Made by a program: the position numbers and the translations under genes. Below, one piece after another: positions 22,421-30,438 of a DNA stretch of 64,000 nucleotides. The stretch lies in the NCBI GenBank assembly GCA_016791475.1, contig JAEUWI010000018.1, forward strand, positions 49,275 to 113,274, given 5' to 3'. Within the stretch, counting starts at the first letter, position 1. Each line of letters begins with the position of its first letter. A model generated the notes under the pieces. The model saw only the letters and a list, made by a program, of their open reading frames with translations. It did not search any database and was not told where the DNA came from. The stretch comes from Candidatus Hydrogenedentota bacterium. Lineage in GTDB: Bacteria; Hydrogenedentota; Hydrogenedentia; Hydrogenedentales; JAEUWI01.

Positions 22421-22613
22421 CCATGCCGCCGCAACCGAAAAAGTTCCCGGTCCGGAAGCACGAAACAGGCGACTTGCACAGCTTTGACCGGGACCATCAA
22501 CCGGCGGTTTCCATCCAGGAAGGGCTCCGAAGGCGCCGATGGCGAATTGCCGCCGCCGCACCTCCCAAGGTACTATGGACACCCCCTCAAACCACCCTAC
22601 CCCGGAGGCCCGG

Positions 22614-24737
22614 ATGAACACCTTTCCGATGAATAACCAGACGCTGCGCGGACCCCGTCCCCTGCTCCTGGCCATCGCCGCCACCCTGCTCCTGGTCAAC
22701 GTCGCGAGCGCTCAGCTCTATCGCCCCGAACGAGCCCGGCGTACGATCAAGGCGGGCCCGTACGAACTCGTCATCCAGAAGAACAGCCAGATTGATCTCC
22801 TGACCCCGGAGGGACAGCCCCTCCTGGACAATGCTTTTCCCTCGTTGATTCTGGAAGGCGGCGAAGAGGTACCCCTGAAAATCGACTACCGGAACACCAA
22901 TCGCTACAGCGTTGACAATCCCATCGGCAAGGGCAACGGCTTTCACTATGCCTCCGCGGAATGCGAATGGCGCATCGCCACCTACCCCTCGGAAAACTTC
23001 CTGACCTTTGACCTTACCTACACAAATAACTCAAAGAAGCCGGTCGCCGTTGCTGGACTTTCCCCGCTCGGCGTCGGGAGAAAAGAAAAAGGCGGCATTT
23101 ATCCAGGTGGAAAACTAAGCCAAGTGCTTATCCTGAAGGCCCCTTCCGCAGGCCAACCCTTCGTGCGGATCGGGCACGAGGCCGGGGAAAGTCGGGGACA
23201 CATCGCCGCCTGGTCGCCCGCGTCTGGACGGACGCTTGTGGCGGGATTTCTGACCCATCGCTTGAGTCTGGGCAAGATTGAACTGGGCCATAGTGCGCCA
23301 ATGGGCGATCTGTCTTTTGATGTATTTTTATCGGTTTGTGTCTTTTCGTCGCCGGTTGTCGTCGAACCTGGTGGGCGACTCAACGCGGAAACCCTCTTCT
23401 TTTCAATGGGCCAGGAAAACCCAACCCGCAGCCTCGAAACTTTCGTTCGCGCTTCCCAGGCCCTCGAGCCCTTTCCCAGCCGGGCTCAACTCCACGGATG
23501 GTTGCCAGTCTCGGCCATCGAGTCCAACGCCGCATCCCTGCTCGACCAGGTGACGGCGGCGCGACCGATGATCCCACTCGGCTGGACCAACCTTAACCTT
23601 GGAAGCCACTGGTCGGTCTCGCCGGGAAGTGCGGATGCGGACCCCAGTCGCTTTCCTCAAGGCCTTTCGGCGGTCACTATTGCGGCCCATGCCGCCGACT
23701 TGAGCGTTTCGCTTGGCATGGAGCAGCACATTACCGACACTTCAACAATAGAAACCACCCTAAACAAACTAAAAACAACTGGGGCGGACACTATAGCGCT
23801 TATTCCGACGCCCGGCATCGGGACCTTTGATATACCCGCTCCTCATCCGCTCACCGTCTTACAGACCATTCATGCATCAACTATGGATCTGCCAAAAGTC
23901 GTCTATACCCACCCTGTGGCACAGGGACCCTTCACCTTGAAAGATTGGGCCCTCGATTCGCGAAGTTACTACCTCCCCAGCGTGGGTAATCCCCTGCTGG
24001 CCCCTGGAAAGCGGGAACTCGCCCAGGACACCACCCAATTCAACGACACGCAGTTTATCGCCGCCTGCACCCTCGCTGCGATTCAAGGAAAGCCCCTGCG
24101 CCCCACGTTGCCCTGGACGCAACTGAGCCCCCTCCGGCAACGCGTTCTCGCGTGCCTCTTGCCTGCTCCGGCCCATGCCGGTCACCCGCTGGACCTTTTT
24201 CAGGAAGGCCCGCCGCAACGCTGGTCCCTTCCTCTACGCACGAAGGTCGGCGAGTGGGCGATTGCCGCCCTCTTCAACTGGGAGCCCGGCGCGGGGGTGG
24301 AGTTGAACACGCCCCTGACGGATCTCGGCCTCAACAACGACAACCTCTATACCGTCTACGACTTCTGGGCGGGCCAATATCTCGGCTTGATTGAGAAGAC
24401 CCTTCGGGTCGAGGTTCCCCCGGAAAGCGTCCGGTTGCTGGGACTCCGTCGTTATGAACGGCGGCCTATGTTGGTGGCCAGCAGCCGCCACTACACCCAG
24501 GGCGCCTCCGATCATACGGCCCTCGACTGGGCGCACGAGACCCGCACCCTGACGGGCACCTTTGCTGCCGTGCCCGGACAGCCCTGCACCCTGTCCATCC
24601 TGGTCCCGGAGCCTTACACCGTGGGGCAGTGCTCATCCACGGCTGAAATCGTCGGACAGAAGCAAACCGATAGCGTGCTGGAGTTGACCATTCGCGCATT
24701 GGCCGGGGGCGAGGTACAATGGAAGGTAACTTTCTAA
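22614..24737 (+). CDS. Secreted hypothetical protein (about 707 aa), possibly a glycoside-hydrolase-like fold
   Basis: Signal peptide (MNTFPMNNQTLRGPRPLLLAIAATLLLVNVASA). Long coherent ORF. I recognise no diagnostic motif. Confidence 0.55.
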   Translation: MNTFPMNNQTLRGPRPLLLAIAATLLLVNVASAQLYRPERARRTIKAGPYELVIQKNSQIDLLTPEGQPLLDNAFPSLILEGGEEVPLKIDYRNTNRYSVDNPIGKGNGFHYASAECEWRIATYPSENFLTFDLTYTNNSKKPVAVAGLSPLGVGRKEKGGIYPGGKLSQVLILKAPSAGQPFVRIGHEAGESRGHIAAWSPASGRTLVAGFLTHRLSLGKIELGHSAPMGDLSFDVFLSVCVFSSPVVVEPGGRLNAETLFFSMGQENPTRSLETFVRASQALEPFPSRAQLHGWLPVSAIESNAASLLDQVTAARPMIPLGWTNLNLGSHWSVSPGSADADPSRFPQGLSAVTIAAHAADLSVSLGMEQHITDTSTIETTLNKLKTTGADTIALIPTPGIGTFDIPAPHPLTVLQTIHASTMDLPKVVYTHPVAQGPFTLKDWALDSRSYYLPSVGNPLLAPGKRELAQDTTQFNDTQFIAACTLAAIQGKPLRPTLPWTQLSPLRQRVLACLLPAPAHAGHPLDLFQEGPPQRWSLPLRTKVGEWAIAALFNWEPGAGVELNTPLTDLGLNNDNLYTVYDFWAGQYLGLIEKTLRVEVPPESVRLLGLRRYERRPMLVASSRHYTQGASDHTALDWAHETRTLTGTFAAVPGQPCTLSILVPEPYTVGQCSSTAEIVGQKQTDSVLELTIRALAGGEVQWKVTF

Positions 24738-24787
24738 GCGCGGGTATTTCGCCCCACCGAAGGGCCCCAGTCCGTCACAGGGAATTC

Positions 24788-25615
24788 ATGCACTTGCTTT
24801 TGTATTCGACTTCGAGCCTCCAGAAGCTCCCCTTTCGAGTGGCGGCGCTCCTGCTTCTGTTCACCTCAGCCGCGCCGGCGGAAACCTATCGATTCGAACA
24901 GGGGGCCGATGGCTATGCCGGCTTTCGGGACACGACCCTGTTCCAGGACTTGCCCACCAATGCGGGTGGGGGCATTGACGGTATCTTCTCCGGCACCATC
25001 CGCACCAGTTTCCTGCGCCGGGCCCTGATTTCGGCCGATCTATCCTCGATTCCCGCCGATGCGGTGGTCACGTCGGCGCGCCTGGAGATGGTGGTGGAGC
25101 GGAGCGGCGGCAACTTCGGGGACATCGTGTATGGCCTGCACCGCGTGCTGCGAAGCTGGGGCGAAGGCGAGGCGGTCATTCCGAACGACCCCGGCGGCCT
25201 GGGCGCAACGGCGGCGACCGGCGACGCCACTTGGAACGACGCCTTCCTCACCCAGGAATCATGGTCTACACCCGGTGGCGATTTTGAGGCCACGGCCAGC
25301 GCCACCGCCAACGCGGGACAGCAGGGCGCCACGGTGACCTGGGAAAGTCCCGGCCTCACCGCCGACGTCCAGGCCTGGGTCAACAACCCCGCGTCCAACT
25401 TCGGGTGGATTATCATTACGCCCGAAGAAGGCATTATTCAGCGCGTAAAGAAGTTCTTTTCCTCCGAGGCGCAGGTAAATCGGCCCGTACTGGTGGTGGA
25501 GACCGAGGGTCCACCCTCGACGGAAGAACCGATTCCGCTCCATCTCGTTCTGCTGCTTTTCTTCGTCCTGCGTCTTTGGTGGCGCCATTTCCGCTTTCTC
25601 ACGTTCCTGACGTAG
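24788..25615 (+). CDS. Secreted protein with a C-terminal PEP-CTERM-like hydrophobic anchor
   Basis: Signal peptide (MHLLLYSTSSLQKLPFRVAALLLLFTSAAPA). The C-terminus TEEPIPLHLVLLLFFVLRLWWRHFRF resembles a PEP motif followed by a TM helix and a basic tail. Confidence 0.5.
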   Translation: MHLLLYSTSSLQKLPFRVAALLLLFTSAAPAETYRFEQGADGYAGFRDTTLFQDLPTNAGGGIDGIFSGTIRTSFLRRALISADLSSIPADAVVTSARLEMVVERSGGNFGDIVYGLHRVLRSWGEGEAVIPNDPGGLGATAATGDATWNDAFLTQESWSTPGGDFEATASATANAGQQGATVTWESPGLTADVQAWVNNPASNFGWIIITPEEGIIQRVKKFFSSEAQVNRPVLVVETEGPPSTEEPIPLHLVLLLFFVLRLWWRHFRFLTFLT

Positions 25616-25736: not shown

Positions 25737-26189
25737 ATGTCAATCACCGCGTTTATCTTCGTTCTCCTGCCATTGGGCGGTTGCTTCATCGTCTTTGGCG
25801 CGCTGATCATGCTGCTTGTATTGAACGCGCGCCGCCGCGCAAACGGGCGTTCGGTATCCGTTACGCCGCGTTCACGGAGGATAGAAAGTGCAGCGAATCT
25901 GCACGCGGCAACAAAAATGGGCAGCGACCATTCCGGGTATGACGGCTTCACGCCGCTGGGTGTGGGGATGCTCGCTACCCAGATGATGGAGCAACCATCG
26001 TCGGCCAGTGGATTAGTACCCCCTTCAACGGAGACTGGCCCGGTGAACAGTGATACTGGCGCGCCCCCTGATTTCGATATGGGGGGCGCTACTCCAGATT
26101 CTGGAAACGCCGGATTCGATAGTGGCGGGGGAGGTTTCAGCGACGGAGGGGGTTTCAGCGACGGAGGCGGCGCCACCGGCTCGTGGTAG
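25737..26189 (+). CDS. Small membrane protein (150 aa) with a Gly-rich C-terminal tail ending GGGATGSW
   Basis: GGGAAGGGAG Shine-Dalgarno. One TM helix (ITAFIFVLLPLGGCFIVFGALIMLLVL). The C-terminal tail is shared with the two downstream TPM proteins. Confidence 0.5.
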   Translation: MSITAFIFVLLPLGGCFIVFGALIMLLVLNARRRANGRSVSVTPRSRRIESAANLHAATKMGSDHSGYDGFTPLGVGMLATQMMEQPSSASGLVPPSTETGPVNSDTGAPPDFDMGGATPDSGNAGFDSGGGGFSDGGGFSDGGGATGSW

Positions 26190-26239
26190 TACGCGAACTT
26201 CGTTCATTTCGGCAGAACCGTACCTGGGAGTTGACTCGA

Positions 26240-27286
26240 TTGAAAGCACAACTACTCAAACTGAGCGTGGTATGCACGCTGCTCAACGTCCTGTGGACGA
26301 TACCTTCCGTTGCGCGGGCGACCACGTTCGACATCGTGCCTCCCGAAGTCGGCACCCATATTCGGGACCTGGCGGATCTCATTACGGCAGACGATGAAGC
26401 AGTAATCAACGAATGGTGCGCGGCGCTGCGGTTGGAGCATACGGTGCCCTTCGCGGTGGTGACTATCGAATCGATGGCCCGTTACGGTGCTGACGACATG
26501 CATATAGAGACGTTTGCGCGCTGCCTTTATGAGCAGTGGGGCAACGACCCCGCGTTCAATGCCTCGGACGACTGGCGACGCGGCGTGTTGCTTTTGATTT
26601 CCAAAGGCGACCGGAAGGCCCGAATCGAACTGGGGGGCACGTGGCCGCCGGATTACATCGCTCGCTGCGTTGGAATCATGAATGCCGTGATCGTGCCCCA
26701 ATTCAAGCAGGGCAATTCTTCTCGGGGCGCCGTTGCGGGGGTTGAAGCCCTGGTAAGAATGGTGCGCGGAGAAATGCCCGCGGCGCCGACCGACGATTCC
26801 CAAGCCGCAGAGGCAACCGGGGCTGCCGCAACGGAGGAGTCGACAGACAATGCGACGCCGGTCCCCGCCAGCACCACGACCACGCCCCCTTCTCAGGCCA
26901 CGCAGATTCACGTGCCCTCGAACACCCCCACGCCGATTCGCACGATTCCCTATCCAACTCAACAGGTCTACTACGAACGACCGACATCCCGTCAGCCAAT
27001 AGCGTTCGGCTGCGCGATCTTCTTCGTGGTCATACTGATGATCGTGAAGGCAATCGGCGGTGGGATGGGCGGGTCCGGCTATCCGGGTGGCTCAGGATAT
27101 TTTTCCAATCGCCACCATCATCATCACCATTTTCACGGCGGAGGCTATTTGGAATCTCGCCATACGGTTGGCCATTCGACCGGCGGACATCACCATGGTG
27201 GAGTCAGTTCCGGGGGACACCATCACGGCGGTGGATCCAGTGGTATCAGCCACGGCGGCGGCGGCGGAGCAACGGGATCCTGGTAA
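26240..27286 (+). CDS. TPM-domain (TLP18.3/Psb32/MOLO-1, DUF477) membrane protein with a His/Gly-rich tail ending GGGGGATGSW
   Basis: TPM consensus (LADLITADDEAVINEW ... VVTIESMARYG ... WRRGVLLLISKGDRKARIELGG ... VPQFKQGN). Signal peptide after a TTG start at 26240; the earlier GTG at 26183 overlaps the upstream gene. One TM helix, then HHHHHH and GGxHHHGG repeats. Confidence 0.8.
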   Translation: MKAQLLKLSVVCTLLNVLWTIPSVARATTFDIVPPEVGTHIRDLADLITADDEAVINEWCAALRLEHTVPFAVVTIESMARYGADDMHIETFARCLYEQWGNDPAFNASDDWRRGVLLLISKGDRKARIELGGTWPPDYIARCVGIMNAVIVPQFKQGNSSRGAVAGVEALVRMVRGEMPAAPTDDSQAAEATGAAATEESTDNATPVPASTTTTPPSQATQIHVPSNTPTPIRTIPYPTQQVYYERPTSRQPIAFGCAIFFVVILMIVKAIGGGMGGSGYPGGSGYFSNRHHHHHHFHGGGYLESRHTVGHSTGGHHHGGVSSGGHHHGGGSSGISHGGGGGATGSW

Positions 27287-27329
27287 CCCGGGGAACACAC
27301 GAATTCCCTGAAGAAAGGAGAAGCACACA

Positions 27330-28271
27330 GTGAACCTGAAAATGCGGCGACCTTGGATTTGCCTGGCCACTTCCATTCTCTGGCTGATACCCGGCATGTC
27401 AATCGCACAGAATCTCACCATCGACCCGCCGGGAGAACGCGCCTTCGTGCAGGATCTCGCACGGATGGTGCAACCGGACGATGTGATGGCCATCCGCGCC
27501 ATCGGCGAGAAGCTCCTCACGGAGCAGGCGATTCCGATCATCGTGGTGACGATCGACTCCATGGCCCAACATGGCGGCGCGGGGTGGCGCATCGAAACCT
27601 TTGCCCGGGTGCTCTTCGACCAGTGGGGCATCGGCTATGAGACCATCGAAGGCCAGCCCTGGAACCGGGGCGTGCTCCTCCTTGTGTCGAAAGACGACCG
27701 CAAGGCGCGCATTGAGCTTGGCAACGACTGGGCGGGCGCCTATGACCCGATTTGCCGGAAGATCATGGACAACCAGATCATCCCCAACTTCAAAAAGGGC
27801 AAGTATTCCGAAGGCATCCTCGCGGGCGTGCGGGAGCTCGACAAGATGTGCCGGAGCATTCCCGTACCCGCCGAGATCGCAGGCGGCGGGACGCCGGCGG
27901 GCAGCTCGGGAAACAGCGCGCAAGGGCCATCCTCCGCGCACGGCTCCAATCTTAGCCTGGTGAATCGAGACCTCAAACTGTCCCCCCCGGTGCGGCCCGA
28001 CTGGTACTGGCCTGCCGTGGGTGTGACGGTGTTTCTCGCTATCTTCACCGCCGTCTCCATGATTCGCAGCGGCACCAGTGGCTGGGCCTGGGCCCTGTGG
28101 ACCGTGGTCTTTGGCGTGCTGGGCGTCATTCTTTTCGTGCTGGGGAGTTCCTCGCGTCGCCACTACGGAAGTAGAGGGGGCGGACTCTTCGGTGGTGGCG
28201 GCGGCGGGTTCTCGGGTGGAAGTTTTGGCGGCGGATTCGGTGGTGGCGGCGGCGCAACGGGATCGTGGTAA
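27330..28271 (+). CDS. TPM-domain membrane protein, paralog of the preceding gene, with a Gly-rich tail ending GGGGGATGSW
   Basis: AAAGGAG Shine-Dalgarno and GTG start. Signal peptide. TPM consensus (VTIDSMAQHGG ... NRGVLLLVSKDDRKARIELGNDW ... IPNFKKGKYSEG). Two TM helices. GGGGGFSGGSFGGGFGGGGGATGSW tail. Confidence 0.8.
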   Translation: MNLKMRRPWICLATSILWLIPGMSIAQNLTIDPPGERAFVQDLARMVQPDDVMAIRAIGEKLLTEQAIPIIVVTIDSMAQHGGAGWRIETFARVLFDQWGIGYETIEGQPWNRGVLLLVSKDDRKARIELGNDWAGAYDPICRKIMDNQIIPNFKKGKYSEGILAGVRELDKMCRSIPVPAEIAGGGTPAGSSGNSAQGPSSAHGSNLSLVNRDLKLSPPVRPDWYWPAVGVTVFLAIFTAVSMIRSGTSGWAWALWTVVFGVLGVILFVLGSSSRRHYGSRGGGLFGGGGGGFSGGSFGGGFGGGGGATGSW

Positions 28272-28281
28272 CAAGGAGCAC

Positions 28282-28956
28282 ATGATGGTCACTGCAAGTG
28301 AGTTTTTGACAAAAGAAGAGCTGGAAAATGTCGGCCAGGCCGTTGCCGCCGCCGAGAAGAAGACGTCCGTGGAAATTGTGCCGGTTATCGCCACGGTTTC
28401 GGGCCGCTACGACCGCGCGGAGGACCTGGCGGGCCTGTGGCTCGGCATCGTGCTCATGGTGGCGCTGTGGCTCGCCTGGCCCGTAAAGCCCGTCGAGCCC
28501 GGCGACTGGGGCGCCGCCTTCCCCCTCAACTACGCGGGCTGGCTCACCGCGCTCATCGGCGGTTTCATCCTGGGCGCATTCATCTGCGCACGCATTCCCG
28601 TCCTGCGCCGCCTCATGACCAGCCGCAAGGAGCTGGCCGCCGAGGTACAGCGGCGGGCCCGGGAGGTCTTCTTCGACCAGCGTATCCACCACACCGGCGG
28701 CGGCACGGGTGTGCTGATCTATGTTTCGCTCTTCGAGCGCACCGTGTGCATCCTGGCGGATGAAAACGCGACCAAGGCCTTGCCCGAAGGCGAAGTTGCG
28801 CGCCTTTGCGCCGCCCTCACGAAGCAACTGGGCAGCACCCCGGCGCGGGGACTCACGGAATGCATCGGAGCGCTCGGCGATAAACTCGCCGCCCCACTCC
28901 CCCGCGACGCTCAAGATCGCGATGAGCTGGCCAATGCCGTGGTGTTGATTGACTAA
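28282..28956 (+). CDS. Divergent TPM-like membrane protein (TPM fold split by a membrane hairpin), without the GSW tail
   Basis: AAGGAG Shine-Dalgarno 7 nt upstream of the ATG at 28282. N-terminal half LTKEELENVGQAVAAAEKKTSVEIVPVIA and C-terminal half HHTGGGTGVLIYVSLFERTVCILADE resemble the two halves of the TPM domain, separated by two TM helices. Confidence 0.6.
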   Translation: MMVTASEFLTKEELENVGQAVAAAEKKTSVEIVPVIATVSGRYDRAEDLAGLWLGIVLMVALWLAWPVKPVEPGDWGAAFPLNYAGWLTALIGGFILGAFICARIPVLRRLMTSRKELAAEVQRRAREVFFDQRIHHTGGGTGVLIYVSLFERTVCILADENATKALPEGEVARLCAALTKQLGSTPARGLTECIGALGDKLAAPLPRDAQDRDELANAVVLID

Positions 28957-29316: not shown

Positions 29317-30438
29317 ATGAAAAGAACCAACAGAAGAGGCTTCACGCTGATCGAACTGCTCGTCGTGATTGCCATCATCGGCATCCTTGCCGCCATCCTC
29401 CTTCCGGCTCTGGCCCGAGCCCGCGAAGCCGCCCGCCGCGCAAGCTGCCAGAACAATCTGAAACAGTTTGGCGTGATCTTCAAGATGTACGCCAACGAGT
29501 CCAAAGGCGAGACGTATCCCGCCGGGGCGGATACCTACGACACCGTGCATATCGCAGCAGGCTTTCGCGGACAGGACCTTTATCCGAACTACTTGACCGA
29601 CCTGAACATTAAAATCTGCCCATCGGCCTCGCGCGCCGCGCAGCCCTCCGGATATAAGACGGATATCAACGAGCAATTCCGGCAGATCACCGATTGTCAG
29701 GCGGCCGCGGGCTATGGTGGCGACTTCGAGAGCAAGCAGATTCAATGGGCTTTTCTCTCCAAATCCAACACCTACGCCTACGTGCCCCATGCAACACGGA
29801 CGGTTTCCCAATTGCTGGACGTGCTCCACATCAACGGTGCATGGTTCTACTATGGCGTGTGGGCCGGTCGTCCAAATGAGACGGACCGCACGCTGATCAA
29901 CAATGCGGCGCTCTATGATCGTTGCGCCCCGGCGGAGTGGCCCATGGTGCGTCACTTCACGTATCCGGGCCACCGCAACGCGGATATCAACATACCGAAT
30001 CGCGGTGCGGGCGCTTCCCGCCCCACCCAGGGCTTCTCGGGAGAAGTGCGCTTCGACACCTACTTCCTGGATGACGACGGTTCCCCGTTGCCCAGCACCT
30101 ATCTTCGTCTGCGCGAGGGGGTGGAGCGTTTCCTGATCACGGACGTAAACAATGCCGGCGCCAGTGCCCTGGCCCAGAGTGACATCACGGTGCTCTTCGA
30201 CGCCTGGAGTACCGGTAGCCAGGGCGCCGTGCGCGTGGGCCGGATCAATCCGCCCAGCACCTTGAACTTCAACCACCTCCCCGGTGGCTCGAACGTGCTC
30301 TATCTCGATGGCCACGTGAGCTTCGTGAAGTACGGCGCAGAGTACCCGGTGAAGTGGCTTCAGCCCGAGAGCAATTACCCGAACGTGATGGGCACCCAGG
30401 CCCACAACATCCTGCCCTACGTCGTGGGTATCGGCTGA
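29317..30438 (+). CDS. Prepilin-type N-terminal cleavage/methylation domain protein of the H-X9-DG (DUF1559) family
   Basis: [50 protein letters not shown] leader, which is family-defining. C-terminal [17 protein letters not shown] (H-X9-DG) motif. Confidence 0.85.

What the first reader, a model, noticed from the sequence alone, without database searches (positions are those of the whole stretch)
25737..28956. Four-gene array: small membrane protein + two TPM-domain proteins + one divergent TPM-like protein; the first three share an identical C-terminal GGGATGSW tail
Three consecutive ORFs end in ...GGGATGSW-stop: 25737-26189, 26240-27286 and 27330-28271. In each, the tail follows a TM helix and a low-complexity Gly-rich region; in the second gene it is His/Gly-rich (HHHHHH, GGHHHGG). 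Genes two and three are TPM (TLP18.3/Psb32/MOLO-1, DUF477) proteins, each with a signal peptide followed by one or two TM helices. Gene four (28282-28956) looks like a TPM fold split by a membrane hairpin and lacks the tail. Gene one is only a TM helix plus the same tail. That suggests the GSW tail is a portable C-terminal module, perhaps a sorting, anchoring, metal-binding or degradation signal, and not just a feature of the TPM domain. I recall that Gly-rich tails ending in GSW occur on some enterobacterial TPM proteins (YgcG-like), but I know of no assigned function. Tandem triplication with a shared extreme C-terminal octapeptide is unusual.
Basis: partly seen in the sequence, partly recalled or inferred. 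Interest (0 to 1): 0.55.

Follow-up and report, generated by a model that had tools for sequence, protein, structure and literature searches.

The report
Portable glycine-rich GSW tail motif
Three neighbouring membrane-protein genes end in the same glycine-rich "…GGGATGSW" peptide, which is the deeply conserved, function-unknown hallmark of a membrane protein family found across Gram-negative-type bacteria and which also appears on many unrelated phage proteins, so it behaves as a portable interaction motif and not as a local curiosity.

Summary
Three consecutive + strand ORFs (25737-26189, 26240-27286, 27330-28271) end in GGGATGSW. Genes 2 and 3 are TPM-domain proteins. Gene 4 (28282-28956) is a TPM fold interrupted by a membrane hairpin.

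The shared tail is not a local oddity. 119 of 120 closest homologues of gene 3 end in GSW. An unbiased DNA scan of species-representative genomes found the tail in essentially all diderm phyla, on TPM genes in 107 of 107 evaluable cases. The conserved part is about 17 residues: [FW][SG][GF]GGG[SGRD][FS]GGGGASG[SR]W.

The locus is a Hydrogenedentota variant of the widespread LemA/TPM/TPM cluster, structurally BA41/BA42-like. It has no LemA, it has tandem TPM copies, and gene 1 is a TPM-less derivative consisting of a TM helix, a disordered linker and the tail.

Unexpectedly, the same motif occurs on dozens of unrelated phage proteins: tail-tube-like, portal-nuclease, tape-measure, pIII-like and small lysis-cassette proteins. 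It sits at their C-termini, internally or N-terminally.

Best reading, at moderate confidence: a short linear interaction motif on a flexible glycine tether, mostly cytoplasmic, which phages copy. Its partner is unknown.

The parts
25737..26189 (+). Gene 1: 150-aa protein with an N-terminal TM helix (residues ~3-29, followed by RRR), a ~100-residue disordered linker and an acidic Gly-rich tail ending GFSDGGGFSDGGGATGSW. It is a TPM-less carrier of the tail.
   Evidence: ORF and translation. No family hit. Orthologues P0001 (67% id) and P0002 (34% id) have the same length and a tail conserved almost exactly. P0002 is syntenic in L001. In the last 19 codons against L001, 9 codons differ but only 2 residues differ. 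Residues 13-150 align with the TM+linker+tail part of the gene-2 orthologue in L179.
26133..26186 (+). Gene 1 C-terminal motif (last 18 codons).
   Evidence: The upstream, unconstrained part scores like genuine TPM tails (p = 2.5e-4).
26240..27286 (+). Gene 2: signal peptide + TPM domain + one TM helix + His/Gly-rich tail ending GGGGGATGSW.
   Evidence: Pfam PF04536 3e-18. One hydrophobic segment at residues ~249-280. The orthologues in L179 and L180 also carry His-rich tails.
26363..26758 (+). TPM domain of gene 2.
   Evidence: Pfam match covers residues 61-192 of the 26183-start translation.
27330..28271 (+). Gene 3: signal peptide + TPM domain + two-helix membrane segment + Gly-rich tail ending GGSFGGGFGGGGGATGSW.
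   Evidence: Pfam 2.6e-24. 100% identical to a 'TPM domain-containing protein' of a Candidatus Hydrogenedentes MAG. AlphaFold2 pLDDT 80, pTM 0.72. Foldseek best hits are TPM structures 7tbr, BA41 (5anp), TLP18.3 (3pvh) and Psb32 (8c7i).
27447..27845 (+). TPM domain of gene 3.
   Evidence: Pfam residues 40-172. This region of the model has pLDDT >90.
28005..28160 (+). Gene 3 helical hairpin (residues 226-246 and 251-277) with the conserved loop R-x-G-S-S-G-W-A-W.
   Evidence: AlphaFold2 secondary structure. Conserved in 107 homologues.
28161..28268 (+). Gene 3 disordered Gly-rich tail with the terminal motif.
   Evidence: pLDDT <50 for residues 277-313. Motif score p = 4e-5.
28282..28956 (+). 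Gene 4: TPM fold without a signal peptide, interrupted by a membrane hairpin, with no GSW tail. It carries the conserved C-terminal ...D-x-D-E-L-A-N... segment of its family.
   Evidence: In 10 of 10 evaluable metagenomic relatives a tail-bearing TPM gene lies directly upstream.
28411..28593 (+). Membrane hairpin inserted in the TPM fold of gene 4 (residues ~44-104).
   Evidence: Hydrophobic segments 46-71 and 84-109. Helices 44-65 and 82-104 in the model. The soluble subtype of the family lacks this region.

Best explanation
The four genes form one operon-like array. It is a Hydrogenedentota-specific elaboration of the widespread bacterial pair of (i) an exported TPM protein anchored by TM helices and (ii) a TPM protein that has no signal peptide and is therefore inferred to face the cytoplasm. 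This pair is usually accompanied by LemA.

The shared ending is the family-wide C-terminal motif [FW][SG][GF]GGG[SGRD][FS]GGGGASG[SR]W, carried at the end of a 30-170-residue disordered, ~43% glycine tether.

I propose that it works as a short linear interaction motif presented on a flexible leash at the inner-membrane surface. In most family members, and in genes 1 and 2, that is the cytoplasmic face. The motif would let tail-bearing proteins dock to a common partner or to each other. Gene 1, which has lost the TPM domain, then acts as an extra presenter (adaptor or competitor) of the same motif. Phages have copied the motif onto virion, ejection and lysis-cassette proteins to engage the same target.

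Shown: the motif's extent, conservation, selection at peptide level, predicted disorder, portability, gene neighbourhoods, and the folds of genes 3 and 4.
Inferred: that it is a binding motif, the compartment, and mimicry by phages.
Unknown: the partner. Candidates are the gene-4/BA42-type TPM protein, LemA, like-with-like association of tails, or a Tol-type envelope protein.
For: Conservation:
- 119/120 homologues end in GSW.
- In a genome-wide DNA scan, positions -14 to -12, which the search pattern did not constrain, are Gly in 97/97 tails, and an aromatic residue recurs at -17/-15 and -10.
- Third codon positions vary freely, and both Ser codon families are used at the same positions.

Tether:
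- The tail is predicted disordered.
- Its length varies from 30 to 171 residues.

Portability:
- The gene-1 family is conserved in synteny at 34% identity while its tail stays almost unchanged.
- P0125 is another carrier.
- At least 5 unrelated small phage proteins and 2 tail-tube-like families carry it at the C-terminus, with upstream scores like TPM tails (p <= 3e-4).
- It is internal or N-terminal in portal-nuclease fusions, tape-measure proteins, a virion protein and a pIII/TspB-like protein.
- A permuted control pattern gives 26 stretches against >=120 (capped) for the real one, and 0 against 19 distinct peptides with the extended signature.

Compartment:
- 59/97 tails follow a single TM helix, with 3.0 K+R and 0.08 D+E in the next 15 residues.
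- Gene 1 and P0125 have Arg/Lys clusters after an N-terminal TM helix.
- Several phage carriers have neither a signal peptide nor a TM helix.

Partners:
- LemA is adjacent in 70% and a gene-4-like TPM in 44% of 61 well-flanked loci, with start/stop overlaps of 4-7 nt.
- 10/10 hairpin-type gene-4 relatives have a tail-bearing TPM directly upstream.
Against: - No binding partner has been identified, and no complex prediction could be run.
- The gene-3 subfamily has two post-domain helices. If both span the membrane, its tail is on the periplasmic side, opposite to genes 1 and 2.
- One phage carrier (L219) presents the motif right after a signal peptide, i.e. outside the cytoplasm.
- A motif that works on both sides of the membrane fits an intrinsic physical property, or like-with-like association, better than one fixed receptor.
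- In phages the motif is often internal, so a free C-terminal carboxylate cannot be essential.
- Neither LemA nor a gene-4-like gene is adjacent in 18% of well-flanked loci.
- My topology calls rest on hydropathy and charge counts, not on a dedicated predictor.
Confidence: 0.45

Rival explanations
1. Intrinsic physical element rather than a receptor-binding motif. The Gly tract with spaced aromatic residues and a terminal Trp sits on the membrane interface ('glycine loops' pinned by Phe/Trp), or forms reversible like-with-like contacts of the low-complexity aromatic kinked-segment type. Either would cluster tail-bearing proteins on either leaflet.
For: - The motif appears in predicted cytoplasmic, periplasmic and virion contexts.
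- It is nearly always close to TM helices or on proteins that deal with membranes: tape measure, pIII-like, and neighbours of endolysin and TM-coiled-coil genes.
- Three paralogues with the same tail are co-encoded here, and up to three in relatives.
- Composition is 43% G, 14% S, 6% F, 4% W.
Against: - Near-invariance of A-S-G-S-W across phyla is stricter than expected for a purely physicochemical anchor.
- The motif is very polar and Gly-rich for membrane insertion.
- There is no experimental or modelling support.
Confidence: 0.2
2. Proteolysis-control element. The exposed tail is a degron, or, through its glycine tract, a stop signal for a membrane-proximal AAA+ protease such as FtsH or ClpXP. 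It would set the level of unassembled TPM proteins and of phage proteins.
For: - Predicted cytoplasmic, disordered tails of >=30 residues are what FtsH is known to need to start degradation of membrane proteins (established knowledge; tail lengths).
- Carriers include phage proteins whose dosage matters, such as tube-like and lysis-cassette proteins.
Against: - Internal and N-terminal occurrences in phage proteins do not fit a C-terminal degron.
- Glycine tracts are poor handles for unfoldases.
- No protease gene co-occurs with the motif.
Confidence: 0.1
3. Periplasmic import/Tol-type epitope. The motif is a relative of the colicin TolB box (ColE9 GASDGSGWSSENNPW) in a glycine-rich unstructured domain, used by phage ejection proteins to engage the Tol-Pal system. 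The host TPM tail would be an endogenous ligand.
For: - Sequence resemblance: GASGSW against GAS-DGSGW, both in Gly-rich disordered context (PMC2821528).
- True carriers were found only in diderm phyla plus one candidate-phylum genome, and none in Firmicutes or Actinobacteria.
- Carriers include a pIII/TspB-like protein and virion proteins that enter the envelope.
- The gene-3 subfamily may expose the tail to the periplasm.
Against: - The colicin core DG[ST]GWSSE is not matched.
- The residues after W are not SSE.
- The majority 1-TM class puts the tail in the cytoplasm.
- Many phage carriers lack export signals.
- Binding to TolB was not tested.
Confidence: 0.08
4. C-terminal sorting or processing signal recognised by a dedicated peptidase or sortase, or a cleavage site that releases downstream domains in phage proteins.
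For: - Extreme C-terminal position in all cellular carriers.
- In phage proteins the motif lies in linkers between domains, e.g. between portal and nuclease.
Against: - The architecture is the reverse of LPXTG, PEP-CTERM and GlyGly-CTERM, in which the motif precedes the TM helix and basic tail.
- No recurrent peptidase or sortase neighbour: the top neighbour clusters are LemA, a second TPM and a minor nucleotidyltransferase-like family.
- No NCBIfam sorting-signal model matches.
- Predicted cytoplasmic location.
Confidence: 0.07
5. No specific function. The tail is only a low-complexity spacer kept similar among paralogues by gene conversion or by a DNA-level element, or, for gene 2, a metal-binding His tract.
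For: - Low-complexity composition.
- Genes 2 and 3 differ by a single base in the last 20 nt.
- His-rich tracts occur in the gene-2 lineage.
Against: - The peptide is identical across phyla while codons vary freely, including switches between TCN and AGY serine codons.
- The gene-1 tail differs from genes 2 and 3 at synonymous sites.
- Between gene-1 orthologues, 9 of 19 codons differ but only 2 residues differ.
- The permuted control is far rarer.
- His tracts are absent from most tails.
Confidence: 0.03

Closest known systems
BA41 / BA42 of Bizionia argentinensis (solved TPM-domain proteins; PDB 5anp and 2lt2/4oa3), which I take, from memory, to represent the COG1512 (YgcG-type) and stand-alone TPM proteins usually encoded next to LemA
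   Same: - The gene-3 model superposes on BA41 (TM-score to target 0.83-0.84) and the gene-4 model on BA42 (0.81-0.82).
- The gene order, exported tail-bearing TPM followed by a TPM without a signal peptide, recurs across phyla.
   Different: - No LemA anywhere in the 64-kb window.
- The exported TPM is present in two copies, plus a TPM-less derivative. 0 of 103 sampled loci from other phyla had a second adjacent copy.
- Gene 4 carries a membrane hairpin that BA42 and most relatives lack.
- The solved structures cover only the TPM domains (142-157-residue chains), so they do not include the tail.
- That BA41 and BA42 are adjacent genes is inferred from their names and was not checked.
Psb32 / TLP18.3 (photosystem II repair and assembly factors), AscF (mycobacterial CIII-CIV supercomplex) and MOLO-1: TPM-domain proteins that act as auxiliary subunits of membrane complexes
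   Same: - Same fold.
- Exported TPM domain followed by a TM helix.
[quoted passage not shown]
   Different: - Psb32 itself lacks the extension (same preprint).
- No photosynthetic or respiratory partner is evident in this locus.
- The preprint, as read, notes the extension without defining a terminal motif or any occurrence outside TPM proteins.
Colicin translocation domains with TolB/TolA boxes (ColE9 32-GASDGSGWSSENNPW-46)
   Same: Both are short Trp-containing epitopes embedded in a glycine-rich, natively disordered region, used by an invading agent to bind a host envelope protein. The core resembles GASGSW (PMC2821528). This is a model for how the motif might work.
   Different: - The defining core DG[ST]GWSSE is not present.
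- Most TPM tails are predicted cytoplasmic.
- TolB binding is untested.
- This is a resemblance, not membership.
Disordered linker plus conserved C-terminal tip of bacterial SSB (…DDDIPF) and FtsZ (C-terminal peptide)
   Same: The architecture is the same: an anchor domain, a variable low-complexity linker, and a short, highly conserved terminal peptide that recruits partners (established knowledge).
   Different: - Unrelated sequences.
- Here the anchor is a membrane helix.
- The motif also functions at internal positions in phage proteins.
C-terminal sorting signals (LPXTG/sortase, PEP-CTERM/exosortase, GlyGly-CTERM/rhombosortase)
   Same: A conserved short motif at the C-terminal end of many proteins.
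   Different: - Reverse order of elements.
- No dedicated enzyme gene nearby.
- Carriers include proteins with no signal peptide.

Membership tests
TPM domain (Pfam PF04536, TLP18.3/Psb32/MOLO-1) | Sequence match to the family profile above the curated cut-off | tested here: met
   Gene 2 scores 66.5 bits, gene 3 86.1 bits and gene 4 29.9 bits against a 22.1-bit cut-off. Gene 1 has no match, so gene 1 is not a member.
TPM domain (Pfam PF04536, TLP18.3/Psb32/MOLO-1) | Alpha/beta sandwich fold superposable on solved TPM structures | tested here: met
   The gene-3 model matches 7tbr, 5anp, 3pvh and 8c7i (E 1e-8 to 1e-6). The gene-4 model matches 2lt2/4oa3 (E 2e-6). hhalign gives 97.9%.
TPM domain (Pfam PF04536, TLP18.3/Psb32/MOLO-1) | Phosphatase or nucleotidase activity reported for some members | not testable with these tools
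   The activity is known only from in-vitro work on TLP18.3, BA41 and BA42 (cited in PMC11237479).
Exported, membrane-anchored TPM proteins with Gly-rich tail (YgcG/BA41 type) | N-terminal signal peptide, TPM domain, 1-3 TM helices, Gly-rich tail ending in G[SR]W | tested here: met
   Genes 2 and 3. The family pattern is shown. E. coli YgcG itself was not examined.
LemA-TPM-TPM gene cluster | LemA-family gene adjacent to the tail-bearing TPM gene | tested here: not met
   A LemA profile built from 69 neighbour ORFs finds nothing in the window's six frames. LemA is also absent next to the 10 metagenomic relatives. LemA is adjacent in 70% of other loci.
LemA-TPM-TPM gene cluster | Second TPM gene without a signal peptide, directly adjacent to the tail-bearing TPM gene | tested here: met
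   Gene 4 starts 10 nt after gene 3. The same pairing occurs in 44% of well-flanked loci and in 10/10 close relatives.
Sortase-type C-terminal sorting signals (LPXTG, PEP-CTERM, GlyGly-CTERM) | Tripartite signal: motif, then TM helix, then a basic cluster at the extreme C-terminus | tested here: not met
   The order here is TM helix, basic residues, Gly tract, motif.
Sortase-type C-terminal sorting signals (LPXTG, PEP-CTERM, GlyGly-CTERM) | A dedicated processing enzyme gene that co-occurs with the carriers | tested here: inconclusive
   None is among the recurrent neighbours within 3 kb on the same strand. Whole-genome co-occurrence could not be computed.
Colicin TolB box | Core sequence DG[ST]GWSSE | tested here: not met
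   The motif is GASGSW with variable following residues. Definition taken from PMC2821528.
Colicin TolB box | Binds the TolB beta-propeller in the periplasm | not testable with these tools
   No complex prediction or binding assay is available. The predicted cytoplasmic location of most tails argues against it.

The most novel reading that the evidence does not exclude
GGGG[SD]F-GGGGASGSW is a universal docking epitope of diderm bacteria. The tail of the near-ubiquitous TPM/YgcG-type membrane protein uses it to bind a conserved envelope partner: its operon-mate TPM or LemA, other tails, or a Tol-like machine. Phages of many kinds have independently grafted the same peptide onto portal extensions, tape-measure, tube, pIII-like and lysis-cassette proteins to plug into that host module during entry, assembly or lysis. 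This would be a bacterial counterpart of viral mimicry of host short linear motifs and of colicin Tol boxes.
Probability: 0.2. Interest if true: 0.85.

Novelty: new variant of a known kind. Interest (0 to 1): 0.6.

Why it matters
TPM/YgcG-type proteins and their LemA and second-TPM partners are among the most widespread bacterial membrane proteins with no assigned function.

This work defines an almost invariant ~15-residue peptide at their end. It shows that the peptide can exist without the TPM domain (gene 1) and that it is shared with dozens of unrelated phage proteins. That gives a concrete handle: a peptide that can be synthesised, mutated and used as bait.

If phages copy the motif to reach the same target, the host module would be a hub that phages exploit. 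The motif could then serve to predict phage proteins that act at the envelope.

For this window specifically, the array is a natural experiment. Three proteins present the same motif on tethers of different length and chemistry, next to one TPM protein that lacks an export signal and is anchored in the membrane by a hairpin.

Tried and rejected
- P0003 (E 4e-5 to gene 1) was rejected as a homologue. It has no GSW ending, lies in a different gene context (L002) and matches only through low-complexity sequence.
- The four 'non-TPM' full-length carriers in the genome scan (L029, L039, L087, L119) were rejected as independent carriers. A TPM domain lies upstream in another frame, so these are frameshifts.
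- L024, L031 and L045 are chance matches.
- Among viral matches, I treat L129, L132, L134, L137, L144 and L152 as chance. L141, L151, L153 and L159 are undecided because their upstream scores are not significant.
- Considered: the phage ORFs might be attP copies of a host TPM 3' end. Rejected because the carriers are conserved structural proteins, or tightly packed genes, with amino-acid variation in the motif. The only adjacent recombinase (L133) is a serine recombinase-type protein (PHROG integrase/invertase), a class that, to my knowledge, does not need long att homology.
- Considered: a DNA-level element (repeat, G-quadruplex, Chi-like). Rejected on codon diversity.
- PADLOC found no defence-system match for any of the four proteins. 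NCBIfam found no match.
- Cultured-phage collection: no relatives of the TM-coiled-coil proteins that precede the small motif ORFs. The 249-aa tube-like family has only distant gp19-like relatives without the tail region.
- The diverse gene-4 alignment (A4) could not be used for the metagenome scan, so P(tail-bearing TPM | gene-4-like) was measured only for the hairpin subtype.
- The portal-nuclease fusions are not polymorphic in their C-terminal domain in this sample.
- Literature: the strings GASGSW, GATGSW, GGASGSW and GASGRW gave no relevant paper. 'LemA' with 'TPM domain' or 'DUF477' gave only expression lists.
- Promoter and terminator scans of the array were uninformative.

Full report
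**1. Observation.**
The window holds four co-directional ORFs with 10-50 nt gaps: 25737-26189, 26240-27286, 27330-28271 and 28282-28956.
- A six-frame scan shows that the first three are the only ORFs in 64 kb that end in G[ST]W, and all three end in GGGATGSW.
- At DNA level the tails differ at synonymous positions: gene 1 has GCC ACC GGC TCG, and genes 2 and 3 have GCA ACG GGA TC[C/G].
- Pfam assigns TPM_phosphatase to genes 2, 3 and, weakly, 4. Gene 1 matches nothing in Pfam, NCBIfam, PHROGs or PADLOC.
- Gene 3 is 100% identical to a 'TPM domain-containing protein' of a Candidatus Hydrogenedentes MAG, which identifies the source lineage.

**2. The tail is the hallmark of the family, not of this locus.**
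- Among the 120 best homologues of gene 3, 119 end in GSW and 81 end in exactly GGGATGSW.
- I back-translated GGGA[ST]G[SR..]W-stop into a degenerate DNA pattern and scanned one genome per bacterial species.
- The hits span Acidobacteriota, Bacteroidota, Ignavibacteria, alpha-, beta-, gamma- and 'delta'-proteobacteria, Myxococcota, Verrucomicrobia, Planctomycetota, Omnitrophota, Nitrospirota, Fibrobacteres, Cyanobacteria/Melainabacteria, Eremiobacterota, Calditrichota and one Saccharibacteria genome.
- Of 119 ORFs ending at a match, 103 contain a TPM domain by a profile I built.
  - Four more have the domain upstream in another frame (frameshifts).
  - Nine are cut by the locus end.
  - Three are chance matches; two of these are the only Actinobacteria in the list.
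- So 107 of 107 evaluable cellular carriers are TPM genes, and all true carriers come from diderm phyla or the candidate phyla radiation.
- Positions the pattern did not fix are also conserved. Gly is found at -14, -13 and -12 in 97/97 tails. Phe/Trp or Gly is found at -17 and -15, and Phe or Ser at -10.
- The motif is therefore about 17 residues: [FW][SG][GF]GGG[SGRD][FS]GGGGASG[SR]W.
- I found no paper in the held library that prints or defines the motif.

**3. Anatomy and topology.**
- The tail after the last hydrophobic helix is 30-171 residues long (median about 60). It is 43% Gly, 14% Ser, 6% Phe, 6% Arg and 4% Trp.
- AlphaFold2 with 107 homologues models gene 3's TPM domain with high confidence, then two helices (226-246 and 251-277), and leaves residues 277-313 below pLDDT 50.
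- In the phylum-wide sample, 59 of 97 proteins have one post-domain helix. It is followed by 3.0 Lys+Arg and 0.08 Asp+Glu in the next 15 residues. The rest have two or three helices.
- Given an N-terminal signal peptide and the known lumenal or extracellular location of TPM domains (established knowledge for TLP18.3, Psb32 and MOLO-1), the tail is cytoplasmic in the 1-helix and 3-helix classes.
- Gene 2 has one helix. Gene 1 has an N-terminal helix without preceding charge, followed by RRR. Both should place the tail in the cytoplasm.
- The gene-3 subfamily is the exception. Two conserved helices are joined by R-x-G-S-S-G-W-A-W. If both span the membrane, the tail returns to the periplasm.
- I could not settle this. 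It is the main uncertainty for any single-receptor model.

**4. Gene neighbourhood.**
- Clustering same-strand neighbours of the 103 genomic TPM genes gives two dominant families:
  - a ~200-aa single-TM helical protein whose sequence I recognise as LemA (assigned by eye; no Pfam scan was run on it), in 67 loci;
  - a ~165-aa TPM-like protein without a signal peptide, in 42-44 loci. It lies directly up- or downstream, often with 4-7 nt overlaps.
- In 61 loci with at least 1.5 kb on both sides, LemA is adjacent in 70%, the second TPM in 44%, either in 82%, and a second tail-bearing TPM in none.
- Gene 4 belongs to the second-TPM family.
  - Profile-profile comparison aligns it with the whole TPM domain, with the membrane hairpin as an insertion after the first strand.
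  - Its model (pLDDT 92) matches the stand-alone TPM protein BA42 best. The gene-3 model matches Rhom172_1776 and BA41.
  - About a quarter of gene-4 relatives carry the hairpin.
- The window has no LemA.
- Ten of ten evaluable metagenomic relatives of gene 4 have a tail-bearing TPM gene directly upstream and no LemA.
- Within Hydrogenedentota the exported TPM gene is present in one to three tandem copies (L182: one; L180: two; L179, L181, L168: three). L179 is fully syntenic with the window: melibiase-like, DNRLRE-domain, TPM x3, gene 4, DUF1559.
- So the tandem array is a lineage-specific expansion of a common module.

**5. Gene 1.**
- Searches of 5.8 billion proteins and of 1.8 billion cluster representatives find only two clear relatives.
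- P0002 is 34% identical and sits in the same place: DNRLRE gene, gene-1 homologue, gene-2 homologue.
- Conservation is concentrated in the TM helix and the last ~25 residues, and FSDGGGATGSW is invariant.
- In the last 19 codons, 9 codons differ but only 2 residues differ.
- Residues 13-150 align (29% identity) with the TM, linker and tail portion of the gene-2 orthologue of L179.
- Gene 1 is therefore best read as a maintained derivative of a TPM paralogue that lost its signal peptide and TPM domain. It is a membrane-anchored tail on its own.

**6. Portability: the unexpected part.**
- The representative search also returned P0125 (180 aa): a weak TM helix, a highly charged helical stretch and GGGGRFGGGGATGSW. 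It lies in a phage-like context.
- Scanning the viral contig collection with the same pattern gave 40 loci. Only 5 of the 31 ORFs ending there are TPM proteins.
- Carriers at the C-terminus include:
  - two tail-tube-like families: 249 aa in seven contigs and 423 aa in three contigs, PHROG 'tail tube';
  - a protein encoded right after a tape-measure gene;
  - small proteins with a zinc ribbon, a Cys-rich region or no recognisable feature.
- I scored the ten residues upstream of the searched octapeptide with a matrix from TPM tails.
  - Five unrelated small phage proteins, P0125 and gene 1 fall in the range of genuine tails (p <= 3e-4).
  - The tube families are intermediate.
  - Obvious chance hits score at p 0.1-0.7.
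- Two of the small carriers (L139, L155) follow homologous TM-plus-coiled-coil genes (38% identity) next to large terminase and endolysin genes, with overlapping stop and start codons.
- Dropping the stop requirement gave at least 120 viral stretches (capped). The motif GGGG[SD]F-GGGGASGSW then appears inside or at the start of many proteins:
  - ten portal proteins, between the portal domain and a C-terminal Endonuclease_NS_2 domain;
  - tape-measure proteins;
  - a 900-aa virion protein, at residue 16;
  - a TspB/pIII-like protein, immediately after its signal peptide;
  - many 110-270-aa proteins in which a Ser/Asp-rich stretch follows.
- A permuted control pattern of equal information content gave 26 stretches. 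None of its 19 distinct peptides had the extended signature, against 19 of 86 for the real motif.
- Third codon positions vary, and both serine codon families are used at the same sites in viral and cellular instances. Selection therefore acts on the peptide.

**7. Mechanism.**
The features are those of a short linear motif on a disordered tether: strict conservation of about 9-15 residues inside otherwise free-running low-complexity sequence, variable linker length, independence from the attached domain, and reuse by viruses.
- I therefore favour an interaction motif presented at the membrane surface. Gene 1 would act as an additional presenter, either competing with the TPM proteins or bridging them. 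Phage proteins would exploit the same contact.
- The partner is not identified.
  - The operon mates (gene 4/BA42-type TPM, LemA) are the obvious candidates from co-occurrence.
  - Like-with-like association would explain the co-encoded paralogues and the function on both membrane faces.
  - Resemblance to the colicin TolB box (GASDGSGWSSENNPW) and the restriction to diderms suggest a Tol-type target, but the core is not matched and most tails are cytoplasmic.
- A sortase-like sorting signal is unlikely: the element order is reversed, no enzyme gene recurs nearby, and some carriers have no export signal.
- A degron does not fit the internal occurrences.
- Metal binding applies at most to the His tract of the gene-2 lineage.

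**8. Novelty and limits.**
- The array itself is a new variant of a known but uncharacterised gene cluster.
- I did not find the following described: the sharp definition of the terminal motif, its existence without the TPM domain, and its spread over phage virion and lysis-associated proteins. The held library is incomplete, so this is not proof of absence.
- Limits:
  - topology rests on hydropathy and charge;
  - viral contigs are predictions;
  - both large scans were capped, so frequencies are lower bounds;
  - E. coli YgcG was not examined;
  - no complex modelling was possible.

Noticed in passing
L142, L145, L146, L157, L160, L163, L166 (249-aa ORFs, e.g. L160:8143-8892); L131, L136, L148 (423-aa ORFs, e.g. 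L148:2013-3284, - strand): Two families of phage tail-tube-like proteins (PHROG 45 and related) carry a Pro-rich linker and end in GGGG[GTK]FAGGGATG[SR]W or GGTFGGGGASGTW. Cultured phages have only distant gp19-like relatives, which lack this ending.
   Followed up: partly
L184, L190, L197, L214, L220, L244, L247, L249, L257, L279 (e.g. L257:1520-3529): Phage portal proteins are fused to a C-terminal Endonuclease_NS_2 domain. The linker has the conserved string NPWHDTE-G-FTF-GQG-...GGGGSFGGGGASG[ST]W followed by a Lys/Pro-rich spacer. Two contigs have the motif twice. The C-terminal domain is the same in all ten, so this sample is not polymorphic.
   Followed up: partly
L139:4027-4233 (- strand) and L155:915-1181 (+ strand), with their upstream genes L139:4233-4559 and L155:493-918: This is a conserved phage gene pair. 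A TM-plus-coiled-coil protein (38% identical between the two contigs) is immediately followed, with overlapping codons, by an otherwise unrelated 68- or 88-aa protein ending GGGG[S]SGGGGASGSW or GGGSFGGGGASGSW. The pair lies next to large terminase and, in L139, an endolysin. It looks like part of a lysis cassette.
   Followed up: partly
L125:825-1367, L126:366-908, L127:365-907 (protein P0125): A 180-aa protein with a weak N-terminal TM helix, a very charged Lys/Arg/Glu/Ala stretch and the canonical tail GGGGRFGGGGATGSW. It is preceded by ORFs with a weak holin-like hit and followed by a PHROG 'cytidyltransferase' fragment. Like gene 1, it carries the tail without a TPM domain, in a mobile-element context.
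   Followed up: partly
L219:3223-4677: A 484-aa TspB/pIII-like protein (filamentous-phage adsorption-protein type, Cys-rich, C-terminal TM helix) has the motif GGSFGGGGASGSW directly after its signal peptide. This is the clearest case of the motif outside the cytoplasm.
   Followed up: no
L029, L039, L087, L119 (genome-contig loci): In 4 of 107 species-representative genomes, the TPM domain and the Gly-rich tail are in different reading frames. These may be assembly errors in the G-rich tract, or real frameshifts or slippage-prone sites.
   Followed up: partly
L210 and L272 (viral contigs), ORFs of >=423-499 aa: TPM-domain proteins in viral contigs have the motif internal (around residue 203-204: ...NPGGGEFGGGGASGSWG[EA]GSTDPNFS) and not C-terminal.
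   Followed up: no
window 27080-27283; L179:2014-3114; L180:3031-3990: The His-rich tract in the gene-2 tail (HHHHHH, GGHHHGG) is semi-conserved in the orthologous paralogue of related Hydrogenedentota (GHHHD..., HHGGHHGH). It is absent from the other paralogues and from tails of other phyla. It may give this paralogue metal- or pH-dependent behaviour.
   Followed up: partly
window 28282-28956 and alignment A4/A5: The gene-4 family has its own conserved C-terminal segment (F-P-x4-D-x-N-E-L-P-D-x-V/I) and an invariant S-G-R-Y-D-R-x-E-D just before the hairpin in the hairpin subtype. LemA is adjacent to 77% of soluble-type members but to only 45% of hairpin-type members in the genome sample, and to none of the 10 hairpin-type metagenomic relatives of gene 4.
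   Followed up: partly
window 22539-25615 and 29317-30438: The array is flanked by a melibiase-like glycosidase (C-terminal Melibiase_C hit), a DNRLRE-domain protein with a C-terminal hydrophobic tail, and a prepilin-type N-methylation/DUF1559 protein. The upstream pair and the DUF1559 gene are syntenic in L179 and L001, so the block is conserved within the lineage. No functional link to the TPM genes is evident.
   Followed up: partly
P0126, P0128 (proteins): These ~330-aa proteins have an N-terminal TPM-like region without a signal peptide (judged from the sequence by eye; Pfam gave no significant TPM hit), one TM helix, a long linker and an acidic Ser/Asp/Gly tail ending in GGDF or GGDSW. 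This may be a parallel 'acidic' version of an aromatic-terminated Gly tail.
   Followed up: no
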